Below are positions 33,915-47,069 of a stretch of 64,000 nt of DNA, one piece after another (positions within the stretch are counted from its first letter, which is position 1; every line of letters begins with the position of its first letter). The position numbers and the translations under genes were made by a program. Under the pieces are notes generated by a model that had not been told where the DNA came from, made no database searches, and was given only the letters and a program-made list of their open reading frames with translations. This stretch comes from Heterodontus francisci (taxonomy: Eukaryota): positions 60,622,592 through 60,686,591 of the forward strand of contig NC_090387.1 in the NCBI RefSeq assembly GCF_036365525.1, written 5' to 3'.

Positions 33915-34262
33915 AACAAAGAACAAAGAACAGTACAGCACAGGAACAGGCCCTTTGGCCCCTCCAAGCCTGCGCCGATCTTGATGCCTGCCTAAACTAA
34001 CACCTTCTGCACTTCCGGGGCCCATATCCCTCTATTCCCTTCCTATTCATGTATTTGTCAAGATGTCTCTTAAACGTCGCTATCGTATCTGCTTCCACCA
34101 CCTCCCCTGGCAGCAAGTTCCAGGCACTCACCACCCTCTGTGTAAAAAACTTGCCTCGCACATCCCCTCTAAACTTTGCCCCTCGCACCTTAAACCTATG
34201 TCCCCTAGTAACTGACTCTTCCACCCTGGAAAAAAGCTTCTGACTATCCACTCTGTCCATGC
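33915..34262 (-). mobile_element. CR1 (HER1-like) LINE 3' end
   Basis: TRGHRFKV...FFTQRVVSAWNLLPGEVVEADTIATFKRHLDKYM; tail similar to the HE1 SINE tail. Confidence 0.85.
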
Positions 34263-34551
34263 TATGTTTGAAGCCAATTGCCATCAAAAGGGCCCTTTCT
34301 CAACTTTCCAGTGGCAGTTTTCTCCTCCAAACAGGGAAGCAAAACTGAATCAAAATACTGTCTTCTATTCAAACTTACATTGGTGTGGTACTTATCACAT
34401 GGGAATCCAGTTCATGGGCTCTTGAACGTATAGTACCATCAGTCTGCTTAAAGACTTATTTTTGCAGTGGTATCATGCCAGATTTGTACAAGTAAATTCT
34501 GAATTTTAATGTGTTACCCAATTAAACAAGTAAAGAGTCAATATAGATGCT

Positions 34552-36307: not shown

Positions 36308-38005
36308 TCAGTTCTGGTCTTTTGATAATTCTGGTATGCTTTTCTTCACAGGTTGCTTGATTTCAGATTCCAGGCCAGGGAGTATCACTTTTTGCCGGGC
36401 TGCGGTCTCAATTTTCTGTACTAGTTCAACATCCCAGGGGTGTGTCACAAAACTAACTACGGACCCCAAAATCTTGCTCCCAACACGCCCCACCCGCCCA
36501 GCGCGGTGGATATAATCGCACAGCGTTGGGGGAAAGTCATAATTAATTACAACTTCCACCCTCTGAGTATCCAACCCACGAGATGCAATGTCTGTGCAGA
36601 GAAGTATGTCTACCAAACCCTGCTGGAAAGTGCAAAATATCCCACTTCGCTTTTCAGCTTGCATATTCCCCTGCAGCCGGCAGTGTTTGATGCGATGGTC
36701 ATCCAGGACATAGCCAAGCCAATTAACTGTTGCTGCACTGTTGCAAAACACAAGGACTCCAGCACCAGCGTTCTCTGCAGTTAGCTCCTTTAACGTTTGC
36801 AACAAGTCACTAGCTTTGTCTTGCCGCTTGACTTTCATGAACTTCTGCCTCACATGTGGCATGAGGTAATGAAGTCCCTTGCTCTTTATGGTGATGATAC
36901 TGCCCAAATCGGTGACTTTGCTGAGAAGTTCTCCCACTCCACCAGGGAAGGTGGCGCCTATCACCACCAGCTGGGCTTTCCTTTCCACCCCGCGGGTTTC
37001 AGAGGGGTGTGCAGCGATTTGGGTGTGGAGGAGAATGTCCTCCAGCAACTCCACAAAGCTTTCATCAAACAGGGTGTCCGCCTCGTCCAACACCAGATGG
37101 GTCAGGTTGCGGAGGGAGATGAAGTCTCTTCTCAGCGCCTTCCACAGGACTCCGGGCGTTGCTATCAACAGGTCGATTGCTCCTCGGGACAAGGTCAGCT
37201 TCACGTTGCCCATCCCCCGGCCTCCCCCGACCGTCCGCACATTCACCTTCAAGTCGGCAGTCAGCGATTGGGCCACTTCCAGGAGCTGGTCGGCCAGTTC
37301 CCGGGAGGGGACCAGCACCAGACTGCGCGGCCCGTCACAGTCGGCGTCCCCCACCTCAGCGCTCTCCGATGTCAAGGTGTGCAGTACAGGCAGCAGGTAG
37401 CTTAGTGTCTTCCCGCTGCCGGTCTCGGCCGCGCACAACACGTTCTTCCCTCTCAACAGAGCAGCGATCGTCTGCGCCTGGACTCGGCTGGGGTGGGAAA
37501 TGCCCATCCTGTCCAGTGCATCCCGCAGCTCGCTGCACAGCCCCAGCGAGCTGAAGCTTCGCACCTTTTCTCTGAGCTTCTCCTCCTCTTCTGGTAAAAC
37601 GGGCGGCTGGTTGCGGGTGTTGTTAATGACAAAATAATCCCCAGCGGCTTTCCTGTGCTTCCAGCCCTTGGAGACCAGGGGTACCTGGTCAAACTTGCCG
37701 AAAGTGTAGCCGGCGTGCAGGTTCAGCTGAGGCCGCTTCCCCATGATGAGCAGCCGACCAGGCCTGGCCAGCCTCAGCGCCGGCGCTTTGCCCCCTGCCA
37801 CGCGTTTCAGCCTCTCCTCCGCTCGGAGCCGCGTCTTCTGAGGGATGCGAATGACGGGCAGCTCGCCGCTGTGGGCCGACACCCGGGGCCCTCCACTGGC
37901 GGAAAAGCCCAACCCCAATCTCTCTCTCAACAGTGTCCCGAGTCGGGTTGCCAGAGATTCGGGGCCCCACGGCTGACGATGGAACCCCAAGCCGAATGCC
38001 AACAT
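36308..38005 (-). CDS. DDX28: Probable ATP-dependent RNA helicase DDX28 (mitochondrial DEAD-box), intronless, 565 aa
   Basis: ATG at 38005; motifs AETGSGKT, PSRELA, TPG, DEAD, GAT, TDIASRGLD, HRAGRVGR; DDX28-specific LPVIRIP, PLVSKGWK, VNWLGYVLDDH, FVTHPWDV; head-to-head with DUS2 as in human. Confidence 0.97.
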   Translation of the reverse strand: MLAFGLGFHRQPWGPESLATRLGTLLRERLGLGFSASGGPRVSAHSGELPVIRIPQKTRLRAEERLKRVAGGKAPALRLARPGRLLIMGKRPQLNLHAGYTFGKFDQVPLVSKGWKHRKAAGDYFVINNTRNQPPVLPEEEEKLREKVRSFSSLGLCSELRDALDRMGISHPSRVQAQTIAALLRGKNVLCAAETGSGKTLSYLLPVLHTLTSESAEVGDADCDGPRSLVLVPSRELADQLLEVAQSLTADLKVNVRTVGGGRGMGNVKLTLSRGAIDLLIATPGVLWKALRRDFISLRNLTHLVLDEADTLFDESFVELLEDILLHTQIAAHPSETRGVERKAQLVVIGATFPGGVGELLSKVTDLGSIITIKSKGLHYLMPHVRQKFMKVKRQDKASDLLQTLKELTAENAGAGVLVFCNSAATVNWLGYVLDDHRIKHCRLQGNMQAEKRSGIFCTFQQGLVDILLCTDIASRGLDTQRVEVVINYDFPPTLCDYIHRAGRVGRVGSKILGSVVSFVTHPWDVELVQKIETAARQKVILPGLESEIKQPVKKSIPELSKDQN

Positions 38006-38018
38006 GCTGTTGAGTTGG

Positions 38019-38342
38019 GAACGGGGAACCCCCTCCCCACGCGCCAGCCCTGGAACACTCAGCTCCTCAGGATTCGATCATAGAACAGGGAACCCCCTCC
38101 CCACGCGCCAGCCCTGGAACACTCAGCTCCTCAGGATTCGATCATAGAACGGGGAACCCCCTCCCCACGCGCCAGCCCTGGAACACTCAGCTCCTCAGGA
38201 TTCGATCATAGAACGGGGAACCCCCTCCCCACGCGCCAGCCCTGGAACACTCAGCTCCTCAGGATTCGATAATAGAACGGGGAACCCCCTCCCCACGCGC
38301 CAGCCCTGGAACACTCAGCTCCTCAGGATTCGGTCATGGAAC
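38019..38342. repeat. Minisatellite, 5 near-perfect copies of a 64-bp unit
   Basis: Unit gaacggggaaccccctccccacgcgccagccctggaacactcagctcctcaggattcgatcata starts at 38019, 38083, 38147, 38211 and 38275. Confidence 0.97.
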
Positions 38343-38344
38343 AA

Positions 38345-38400
38345 CACGGCGCATAGAAATGACGTAACCATTAGTCGGAAGTGATCTCTGGCATTCTACA
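38345..38400. promoter_or_regulatory. Candidate bidirectional DDX28/DUS2 core promoter
   Basis: CRE/ATF-like ATGACGTAA (38359-38367) and ETS/GABP CGGAAGTG (38376-38383) between divergent genes, at the edge of a CpG-rich region. Confidence 0.7.
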
Positions 38401-38472
38401 TGTGTTTCTGGTGTGCGGCAGCTGCACTCTGTGCTGGGTCGCAGTTTGGTGTTTGCGTTCATTGTTATCCAG
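38390..38472 (+). other. DUS2: Probable non-coding first exon of DUS2
   Basis: Follows the ETS motif and ends at a strong donor CAG|GTGAGG (38472/38473); the start is inferred. Confidence 0.55.
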
Positions 38473-38939
38473 GTGAGGGCTACGTTTTTATATTTTTAAA
38501 TACTCCGCCTCATCGCTTTGTGCGTCAATGTTTTGTGCCACAATGGTACAGTGCGTTAATCTACACAGTAGGTCCTGCGCTTAATAACGATGTGATCCTA
38601 GTCTTGAGTAAACTGGGACCTGTGAATGGGATACGTTGAAGTTTGTGGAAATTTCCTATCTTTAAATCAACAAGTCTTTGTATTCTATGAAGCTAGCAGA
38701 ATTGATTTGTATGTAGAATTCTCTTTTTAACCAGTACTTGAAACTGACAGCAGTCTATCTTGAGCTGTCATCATTGAATGCATTTTAGAAGGGTTTTTTG
38801 TTCAGTGATGATAGCCAAACATAAAACGTTGCTGCCATTATTTAGGACAGCAGGTGCTGGTAATGGGTCTGCTGTTTGCATCTACACCCCTTCTAGACCC
38901 ATCTTTTGTTTCTTTACTTGGCCCATTACCCTGCTGATA

Positions 38940-39970
38940 TAATAAAAGCAAAATACTGTGGATGCTGGAAATCTGAAACAAAAACAAGAAATGCTGGATT
39001 CACTCAGCAGGTCTGGCAGCATCTGTGGAAAGAGAAGCAGAATTAACGTTTCGGGTCAGTGACCCTTCTTCGGAACTGACAAATATTAGAAAAGTCACAG
39101 ATTATAAACAAGTGAGGTGGGGGTTGGGCAAGAGATAACAAAGGGGAAGGTGCAGATTGGACCAGGCCACATAGCTGACCAAAAGGTCACGGAGCAAAGG
39201 CAAACAATATGTTAATGGTGTGTTGAAAGACAAAGCATTAGTACAGATTAGGTGTGAATATACTGAATATTGAACATCAGCAAGTGCAAACCTGAAAAAA
39301 ACAGTGGGTAAGCAAACTGAACAAACTAAGATGAAATGAAATAAATGCAAAAAAAGATTGTAAAAAATGTAAAAAGGAATGCAAAAAAAAAAGGAAGAAA
39401 AAATAACTAAAAATGAAAGTAAAGTGGGGGGCTGTCATGCTCTGAAATTATTGAACTCAATGTTCAGTCTGGCAGGCTGTAGTGTGCCTAATCGGTAGAT
39501 GAGATGCTGTTCCTCGAGCTTGCGTTGATGTTCACTGGAACACTGCAGCAATCCCAGGACAGAGATGTGAGCATGAGAGCAGGGGGGAGTGTTGAAATGG
39601 CAAGCAACCGGAAGCTCAGGGTCCTGCTTGCGGACTGAGCGGAGATGTTCCGCAAAGCGGTCACCCAGTCTGCGCTTGGTCTCCCCAATGTAGAGGAGAC
39701 CACACTGTGAGCAGCGAATACAGTATACTACATTGAAAGAAGTACAAGTAAATCGCTGCTTCACCTGAAAGGAGTGTTTGGGGCCTGGGATAGTGAGGAG
39801 AGAGGAGGTAAATGGGCAGGTATTACACCTCCTGCGATTGCAAGGGAAGGTGCCCTGGGACAGGGACGAGGTGGTGGGGGTAATGGAGGAGTGGACCAGG
39901 ATGTCGCGGAGGGAACGATCCCTTCGGAATGCTGACAGGGGAAGGGAGGGGAAGATGCGACTGGTAGTGG
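38940..39970 (-). mobile_element. Penelope-like retroelement, 5'-truncated, GIY-YIG domain plus pseudo-LTR with hammerhead motif (39041-39077)
   Basis: Open frame LPLSAFRRDRSLRDILVHS...CNRRRCNTC...VVYCIRCSQCGLLYIGETKR; inserted into an older Penelope-like remnant (ctgct repeated at 38931 and 39971). Confidence 0.9.
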
Positions 39971-41428
39971 CTGCTTCTTTGCCTTGTACCATCCTGCCTT
40001 TTGTCGTTTAATTATTCTGATCCTCCACCCTTCGTTCAATATCGTTCTTCAGTTCAACATGCACTCATGCAGGCTTTGTTCATCTATGTTGTTCTGCTTA
40101 TCACTGCCCAATTATGTTTGGCATGATCAAATCAACACTATATTCTAAATCATTGGTTGACACGTTCAAACTTAGGGACAAGTTTTCCTTTAAAAGCAAA
40201 ATACTGCAAATGCTGGAAATCTGAAGTAAAAACAGAAAATATTGGAAACACTGGAGTAGTAGCTACAAAGTGAGAAAAGCATTGTTAACAATTCAGGTCC
40301 ATTGGCTTTCCTTTTGCATCATAAATTGCTTAAAACTGGCAGTACCTCTTGGTTTTTGCAGAATAAATGTAACTTGTAGGTCTGTAGAGAGACAGTGTGT
40401 AAGGCAGAGTGTAATCCAACAGTTAACTTTTAGTTTAGGATGTCAGTAACTTGGATCACAACATCTGGTAATGTTAGTTGTCTGCGTCCACAGTTAATCA
40501 AAAGTTATCAAGTTATACATTAAGTTATTCCAAAGACTTGGGTACATTCTGATCCAAGAATAGGCAAATATTGTTTCAATCTGATTTAACATATTGTGGG
40601 TCACTATCTCTCCAGTATCAGTGGTTAGACTGTTAGTGAAGTTAACCAATGTTGTATTGGAATTGCAACAACCGTTTCTACAGTATATAACTCGTGAATG
40701 TCTATTCATAGTGGTGACTAACCTTTTCCATTGCTTTGATTCGTGTGTCATTGTTTTATTTATATCAATATTTTATTTTGTAATTTTCATTTTGTTTGCT
40801 GATTACACAGTTGCCCCCATTTTGTTCGTTAAATAACTGTTGACATAAATAATTGGTGATGTAACTATACAACGATATCCAGATTTTCAATTCAGAGATT
40901 AGATATTTTGTGTTTTATAGAAGAAGCTTGTTGCTAGCAGCACTCCTGTTGTGCAGCTTAGTAGTATTGTTTTGGGAAAATTAGGTTTCTCCAGTAAACA
41001 ACTCTAGAGCTACATTAAGCTGTTTGATATCAGTAAGCTCAAAGTCATGAATGTAAGTCAGAATGAGTCAATAAAATCGTTTAACTTGGGAGATCATTAT
41101 TTCTTACAGATGTATGCGGTTATATCTGATTCAGACCCCTTAATATTGCAAATACAACATTTCTTTAAGAAATAATAGTCGTGTGCAGCCTGCCTCTGTT
41201 TATATTAGCAGCTCCATCAGCTGCAATGTGCACATTGAAGCAACCTTTAATGTTTGTGGTATCTATATTGACTATTTCAGTTGGCAGACTTGGTGGGTTT
41301 GTTGCTTTCCCTGTTCAAAATAGTGTAGTTGGGGAAGGAGAAGATTGCACTTCACTATATATCACACTGGTGAAACACTAAACTCTGGTACTGGATGTTC
41401 AGTATGAAGCGACTGGGGATGTAGTGAG

Positions 41429-46394: not shown

Positions 46395-47069
<675 letters not shown>

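What the first reader, a model, noticed from the sequence alone, without database searches (positions are those of the whole stretch)
38019..38342. 64-bp minisatellite in the probable DDX28 5' UTR multiplies a 4-codon upstream ORF
Seen in sequence: five near-identical 64-bp units fill the space from 13 nt upstream of the DDX28 ATG to the CRE/ETS promoter motifs. On the DDX28 (minus) strand, units 1-3 each read ATG ATC GAA TCC TGA (MIES*; A of ATG at 38081, 38145, 38209), unit 5 reads ATG ACC GAA TCC TGA (38337), and unit 4 has lost its ATG (ATT). Because 64 is not a multiple of 3, successive uORFs rotate through frames. Each unit also carries G-runs on the mRNA strand (GGG..GGGG.GGGGG). Inference: if transcription starts near 38345, repeat copy number would set the number of uORFs and possible G-quadruplexes, acting as a translational tuning knob for a mitoribosome assembly helicase without altering DUS2.
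Basis: partly seen in the sequence, partly recalled or inferred. Interest (0 to 1): 0.7.

Follow-up and report, generated by a model that had tools for sequence, protein, structure and literature searches.

The report
Repeated leader in shark DDX28 mRNA
In this shark, a 64-base piece just in front of the mitochondrial helicase gene DDX28 is repeated five times and carries a four-codon mini-gene in four of the copies; it likely lies inside the messenger RNA and is predicted to lower protein output only modestly, more likely as a tolerated by-product of DNA slippage than as an evolved dial.

Summary
In detail: five 64-bp units (97% alike) lie between the DDX28 start codon and the promoter shared with DUS2, with four-codon uORFs at 38081, 38145, 38209 and 38337. 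DNA contigs of the same sample support about five copies. RNA contigs indicate that most DDX28 transcripts carry at least three to four units, so three uATGs are likely in the mRNA. A related species also has the tandem array, with a different unit mix. A sevengill-shark protein record shows that 57 nt of the unit are an old DDX28 leader segment, likely amplified later from a 5-bp microhomology. The 'tuning knob' is not shown. All uATGs have weak context, one is lost, and 26% of shuffled units hold such a uORF. Frame rotation has no effect because each uORF stops inside its unit. No canonical G-quadruplex motif is present, and copy-number variation within the species was not tested. Each unit also repeats promoter-like motifs, so 'without altering DUS2' is unsupported. 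Verdict: a real 5'-leader minisatellite of the TYMS/PDYN kind, with a likely modest effect.

The parts
38019..38342 (.). Minisatellite, 5 x 64 bp plus 4 bp; likely DDX28 5' leader
   Evidence: RNA and DNA contigs
38067..38081 (-). uORF of unit 1 (MIES*), weak context, stop ends 61 nt before the main ATG
38131..38145 (-). uORF of unit 2 (MIES*), weak context
38195..38209 (-). uORF of unit 3 (MIES*), in frame with the CDS but closed by its own stop
38259..38273 (-). Unit 4 counterpart with ATG changed to ATT (no uORF)
38323..38337 (-). uORF of unit 5 (MTES*); this unit type also occurs in organism B; may lie at or beyond the main transcription start
38017..38073 (-). 57-nt segment homologous to the annotated N-terminal extension of Heptranchias DDX28 (13 of 19 codons identical, at least 7 nt changes)
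38018..38022 (+). Left copy of the 5-bp boundary microhomology GGAAC
38338..38342 (+). Right copy of the 5-bp boundary microhomology GGAAC
38023..38038 (.). kappaB-like and Sp/KLF-like motifs, repeated in all five units (consensus patterns recalled, binding untested)
36308..38005 (-). DDX28 coding sequence, one uninterrupted ORF, 565 aa
38360..38382 (+). CRE-like (38360) and ETS-like (38376) motifs of the shared promoter
   Evidence: labels recalled
38347..38472 (+). DUS2 non-coding exon 1 (5' end not mapped; contigs begin at 38347, 38408, 38444 in 3 of 4 runs), spliced to exon 2
46860..47003 (+). DUS2 exon 2 with the start codon at 46875

Best explanation
This is a five-copy tandem array of a 64-bp segment in front of DDX28 that likely arose by slippage or unequal exchange from an old single-copy leader, likely lies in the mRNA, and is predicted to damp DDX28 translation only modestly as a tolerated by-product. 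Shown: the array, its uORFs and their contexts, the boundary microhomology, a tandem state in a second species, and homology of 57 nt to the sevengill-shark leader. Inferred origin: the ancestral segment was flanked by two GGAAC pentamers, which seeded the first duplication; later amplification and turnover gave different unit mixes in the two species. Inferred mechanism: scanning ribosomes mostly pass the weak-context uATGs; those that start make four residues, stop, and can re-initiate; each unit adds about 30 kcal/mol of predicted structure. More units would lower output somewhat, but nothing shows that selection set the number.
For: GGAAC occurs at both array ends. The unit matched only this locus in the 6.0-Gb genome (5 matches; that search gives lower bounds). 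The leader translation matches P0003 with score 62; the next best of 426 comparisons scores 30, and 0 of 5000 shuffles reach it. Organism B (13 differences in 494 nt of CDS) shows tandem joints in 4 of 4 laid runs (64-base go-back in X9, X11, X13; 57-bp unit in X13 and X14, one sample). RNA depth ratios to the CDS contig: X5 core 2.65, junction 1.17; X7 full cycle 2.06. The model gives core 0.10-0.16 for a start at 38082 and 2.5-2.8 for a start at 38310. In 3 of 4 runs a gap separates array contigs from DUS2 contigs, so the array RNA is not DUS2 mRNA. Weak uATG contexts, one ATG lost; 79% of shuffled units have an ATG and 26% an ATG with a stop within 10 codons. Leader folding is no better than shuffles (z -1.09). 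Vertebrate uORFs repress by 21-40% on average as their number rises (PMC4890304 passages).
Against: The consensus unit of organism B, including the uATG, has 0 differences from this species while the CDS differs at 2.6%. About 1.7 differences were expected, so this is not significant, but it points towards constraint. The array persists in two species directly before an important gene, and the unit-1 uORF stops 61 nt from the CDS, inside the ~100-nt zone from which uORFs are normally depleted, so the effect could be more than modest. Contig depths are a poor measure and show neither strand nor 5' ends (tool caveat). The sevengill homology comes from one protein record, so a single copy in that species is inferred, not seen.
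Confidence: 0.6

Rival explanations
1. [quoted passage not shown]
For: The array is likely in the mRNA. uATGs are kept in all unit types seen in organism B contigs. uORF number correlates with lower CDS translation in vertebrates. The human TYMS VNTR, also 13 bp before its ATG, is reported to affect translation.
Against: Weak contexts, one lost ATG, 26% chance level, no effect of frame; no canonical G4; no within-species copy-number data; no sign of selection tested.
Confidence: 0.2
2. Transcriptional effect: the unit is a downstream promoter element, and its kappaB-like and Sp/KLF-like sites, multiplied five times inside the CpG-island promoter, change transcription of DDX28 and possibly DUS2, as reported for the PDYN 68-bp and TYMS 28-bp repeats.
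For: Both motifs occur in 5 of 5 units. CpG observed/expected is 0.67-0.82 across the region. The stretch kept in Heptranchias includes these motifs as judged from the peptide. PDYN precedent: one copy in other primates, several in humans, raised inducibility. USF sites in TYMS repeats.
Against: Consensus matches in GC-rich DNA are weak evidence and the patterns are recalled. The 57-bp unit of organism B deletes 7 bp of the C-run that forms these motifs. No binding or expression data.
Confidence: 0.15
3. Artefact or non-transcribed DNA: the array is an assembly error, or transcription starts downstream of it.
For: No raw long reads or cap data were available; no contig spans the whole array.
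Against: DNA depth ratios match five copies; tandem joints occur in a second species from two studies; spliced-RNA runs cover the unit at 2-3 times CDS depth.
Confidence: 0.05

Closest known systems
Human TYMS 5'UTR 28-bp VNTR (TSER 2R/3R; PMC3320636 and PMC6620013, passages read)
   Same: GC-rich tandem repeat in the 5' leader of a housekeeping gene, ending 13 bp before the start codon, with single-base variants between units and proposed effects on both transcription and translation.
   Different: The unit here is 64 bp and holds a complete 4-codon uORF; the passages read on TYMS name USF E-boxes and no uORF. TYMS copy number is known to be polymorphic; here that is untested.
Human PDYN 68-bp promoter repeat (PMC1283535, abstract and section 6 read)
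   Same: Similar unit size and low copy number; amplified in one lineage from an element that is single-copy in relatives.
   Different: PDYN's repeat acts on transcription and shows evidence of positive selection; this one likely lies in the mRNA, is shared by two related species, and shows no tested sign of selection.
Ordinary vertebrate uORFs (PMC4890304 and PMC6547434, passages read)
   Same: Short AUG-stop ORFs in weak context upstream of the CDS, expected to be modestly repressive.
   Different: Here they are near-identical copies made by tandem amplification, so their number can change in single mutational steps.

Membership tests
Minisatellite / 5'UTR VNTR (TYMS, PDYN kind) | Head-to-tail array of 10-100-bp units with high identity | tested here: met
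   5.1 x 64 bp, 97%
Minisatellite / 5'UTR VNTR (TYMS, PDYN kind) | Lies in the transcribed leader or promoter of a gene | tested here: met
   RNA contigs cover unit core and junction at 1.2-3.3 times CDS depth; model places the main start at about 38275-38345; strand and 5' end are inferred
Minisatellite / 5'UTR VNTR (TYMS, PDYN kind) | Copy number varies among individuals of the species | not testable with these tools
   All organism A holders are one sample; contigs collapse the array. Differences between species were seen (57-bp unit)
Minisatellite / 5'UTR VNTR (TYMS, PDYN kind) | Copy number changes expression | not testable with these tools
   needs reporters or allele-specific data
Regulatory uORF | AUG-stop ORF upstream of the CDS in the mRNA | tested here: met
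   4 uORFs in DNA; the ATG-bearing consensus junction is present in RNA contigs of X5, X7, X13 and others
Regulatory uORF | Start context strong enough to capture scanning ribosomes | tested here: not met
   4 of 4 uATGs have U at -3 and A at +4; the main ATG has A at -3 (Kozak rule recalled)
Regulatory uORF | uATG conserved beyond neutral expectation | tested here: inconclusive
   kept in organism B units, lost in unit 4 here; not visible in the Heptranchias protein record
Regulatory uORF | Translated and repressive in vivo | not testable with these tools
   no ribosome profiling data
5'UTR RNA G-quadruplex | Four tracts of 3 or more G with short loops, not out-competed by C-runs | tested here: not met
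   0 canonical motifs at loops of 1-7 or 1-12 nt; ViennaRNA with G4 enabled picks none in 5 of 5 leader lengths. G4Hunter peaks at 1.92 and five two-tier patterns exist, so a weak form is not excluded
Transposon- or structured-RNA-derived repeat | Unit found at other loci or matching an RNA family | tested here: not met
   5 matches, all at this locus (lower bound); 0 Rfam matches at E up to 5

The most novel reading that the evidence does not exclude
A vertebrate minisatellite whose unit is a complete uORF-plus-structure module works as a digital translational dial: each gain or loss of a unit adds or removes one uORF in the DDX28 mRNA, segregates among sharks, and sets mitoribosome assembly capacity.
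Probability: 0.15. Interest if true: 0.65.

Novelty: new member of a known kind. Interest (0 to 1): 0.3.

Why it matters
If copy number really set the uORF count and protein output, this would be a clean natural series (1 to 5 near-identical uORF modules) linking tandem-repeat mutation to translational control of a mitoribosome assembly factor. Four full-text searches listed no paper whose title or abstract start describes that for a cellular vertebrate gene; only listings were seen and subscription papers are not covered. On present evidence it is a lineage-restricted leader minisatellite like TYMS or PDYN, useful as a ready-made reporter series and as a marker, but with no shown function.

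Tried and rejected
Rfam scan of 37900-38600: 0 matches; a tRNA B-box-like look of the unit was dropped. Metagenome scan for shark DNA with a 19-nt unit pattern: 87 loci, none aligning over more than 48 nt, so none is a DDX28 leader. The dispersed DDX28 copies in the genome were examined as fossils of the old leader, but the 10 of 11 places that also hold the DUS2 piece lack about 38001-38384, so they cannot date the array. A cryptic intron around the array was considered; the junction in those copies removes the main ATG and does not use the AG before it, and no laid run showed a skip over the leader. No in-frame upstream ATG extends DDX28 here: a stop lies 24 codons upstream. N-terminal extensions matching the unit were found in 1 of 142 proteins held. 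No run was on record as RNA ('no RNA holder listed'); RNA status was inferred from splicing for X5, X7, X9, X14 only. Pfam missed the 43-aa DUS2 exon; PDB identified it. The Marek's disease virus 132-bp repeat was read as a possible analogue; the passages say nothing on uORFs. Two primary TYMS translation papers were not held; only their titles were seen in a reference list. No earlier scan findings cover this locus.

Full report
OBSERVATION. The array is as described. TRF gives 38019-38342, period 64, 5.1 copies, 97% matches; its score of 620 is far above the other 7 rows in the window. Four substitutions separate the units. On the minus strand the ATGs at 38081, 38145 and 38209 read MIES*, 38337 reads MTES*, and unit 4 has ATT. 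The array stops 13 nt before a 565-aa ORF with DEAD and Helicase_C domains whose best named relatives are shark DDX28 at 83-84% identity; the start methionine aligns with most of them. DDX28 is called a mitoribosome assembly factor in PMC6414753 (passages). The divergent gene is DUS2: its exon 1 splices at 38472 to an exon whose peptide matches human DUS2 at E 2.4e-17.

IS IT REAL? Twenty runs were listed and seven were laid, all as assembled contigs. In DNA run X1 (same sample as the other organism A holders, possibly the assembly source) the unit core and unit junction have 4.54 and 2.27 times the depth of the unique flank; the assembly predicts 4.82 and 2.42. This supports about five copies. 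It also gives one calibration for using within-run depth ratios, which the tool warns are a poor measure.

IS IT IN THE mRNA? X5, X7, X9 and X14 are RNA: all four show the DUS2 splice and no cover of the intron. In organism A the core has 2.65 times and the ATG-bearing junction 1.17 times CDS depth in X5, and the full unit cycle 2.06 times in X7. A simple fragment model predicts core ratios of 0.10-0.16 for a start at 38082, 1.1-1.4 at 38210, 2.5-2.8 at 38310 and 3.1-3.4 at 38345. The best fit is about 38275-38345; a 3' bias would move it further upstream. In X7, X9 and X14 the DUS2 contigs begin at 38444, 38408 and 38347 and do not join the array, so array RNA is unlikely to be DUS2 mRNA; in X5 one contig does cross the gap. 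Contigs show neither strand nor ends, so this is an inference: three uATGs are likely in most transcripts, and the fourth (38337) is uncertain.

ORIGIN. The unit matched nowhere else in the genome (lower bound) and no Rfam family. Both array ends carry GGAAC, the usual footprint of a slippage-type duplication (general knowledge). Organism B, 13 differences in 494 nt of CDS away, also has tandem units: 64-base go-back joints in X9, X11 and X13, and in one sample (X13, X14) a 57-bp unit with a 7-bp deletion that follows a unit-5-type end. So the array predates the split or expanded in both species, and unit make-up has changed since. The Heptranchias DDX28 record begins with an extension that matches the translated unit at 13 of 19 residues (at least 7 changes in 57 nt). 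Its score of 62 compares with 30 for the next best of 426 comparisons, and 0 of 5000 shuffles reach it. The unit is therefore an old piece of the DDX28 leader. Whether it is single-copy in other sharks could not be seen, and sharks evolve slowly (recalled), so this similarity does not prove constraint.

HOW IT LIKELY WORKS. All four uATGs have U at -3 and A at +4, while the main ATG has A at -3, which favours leaky scanning (Kozak rule, recalled). Each uORF ends after four codons inside its own unit, so frame rotation has no effect and no uORF overlaps the CDS. The last stop lies 61 nt before the main ATG. PMC4890304 (passages) reports average reductions of 21-40% with rising uORF number, and depletion of uORFs within about 100 nt of the CDS; PMC6547434 (passages) links reinitiation to uORF number and distance. 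An ATG occurs in 79% of 3000 dinucleotide shuffles of the unit and an ATG with a stop within 10 codons in 26%, so the uORF needs no special explanation; one of four substitutions has removed an ATG. Predicted structure grows by about 30 kcal/mol per unit but is no more stable than shuffles (z -1.09). There is no canonical G-quadruplex motif and ViennaRNA selects none, although G4Hunter peaks at 1.92; a C-run next to the G-runs would compete. The best reading is modest damping of translation as a by-product (0.6). Against it: uATGs are kept in all organism B unit types seen, and the consensus unit is unchanged between the species, though this is not significant.

RIVALS. A selected translational dial remains possible (0.2) but lacks polymorphism data, strong contexts or any sign of selection. 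A transcriptional effect (0.15) is possible because every unit repeats a kappaB-like and an Sp/KLF-like motif within a CpG island shared by both genes (patterns recalled); this also undercuts the claim that DUS2 is unaffected. Artefact or non-transcription is unlikely (0.05).

COMPARISON. It works like the TYMS 28-bp 5'UTR VNTR, which also ends 13 bp before its ATG (PMC3320636 passages) and has reported effects on transcription and translation (PMC6620013 passages). In origin it resembles the PDYN 68-bp repeat, single-copy in other primates (PMC1283535 abstract and section 6). Variable copy number within the species, the defining feature of a VNTR, is untested. A review of VNTRs (PMC12776774, passages) names transcription-factor density, methylation and chromatin as mechanisms, and the term 'upstream open reading frame' occurs only in its reference list. 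Searches for a repeat unit holding a whole uORF listed no clear case; only titles and abstract starts were seen, and no supplements were read. A search for DDX28 with DUS2 gave 23 papers, 20 listed, none on this promoter by title.

VERDICT. A real, likely transcribed, lineage-restricted leader minisatellite; new member of a known kind; interest 0.3. The uORF-dial reading has probability about 0.15 and would merit about 0.65. A side result, a multicopy transposon-like family carrying the fused 5' ends of DDX28 and DUS2, may deserve its own follow-up.

Noticed in passing
L007-L016 (G000 C24, C1, C2, C18, C20 twice, C4, C37, C33, C5); source window 37293-38000 and about 38385-38552: A dispersed family of elements (1.1-1.3 kb where both ends were found) carries the 5' part of the DDX28 CDS fused to DUS2 exon 1 and the start of its intron, with the leader and promoter deleted (10 of 11 places; 67-84% identity to the source). 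Ends are inverted repeats; 8-bp target duplications match 8/8, 7/8 and 6/8 in three copies, 2/8 in two, and both ends were not found in five. It looks like a multicopy gene-capturing hAT element (label recalled). PMC8277862 passages report only four multicopy cases in reference genomes; earlier scan notes report similar elements in other sharks.
   Followed up: partly
L012 (G000:C4:54591180-54594545): The junction sequence of this captured copy matches a 2243-nt contig in RNA run X5, so one copy may be transcribed; presence only.
   Followed up: partly
window 37994-38001 and 38389-38396: An 8-bp inverted repeat brackets the segment that is deleted in the captured copies; it may have guided the deletion or be chance.
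   Followed up: no
P0003 (Heptranchias DDX28) residues 1-25: The annotated 25-residue N-terminal extension is the translated leader: an ATC of the unit corresponds to an in-frame ATG there. It is either a real extension or a start-site mis-annotation.
   Followed up: partly
window 38354 and 38371, minus strand: Two further upstream ATGs (6 and 18 codons) in the promoter gap would enter the leader if some transcripts start beyond 38355; one contig of X5 crosses this gap.
   Followed up: no
window 39435-39992 (-) and 33997-34284 (-): ORFs that resemble, from memory, a GIY-YIG endonuclease end of a Penelope-like element in DUS2 intron 1 and a CR1/L2 LINE C-terminal fragment.
   Followed up: no
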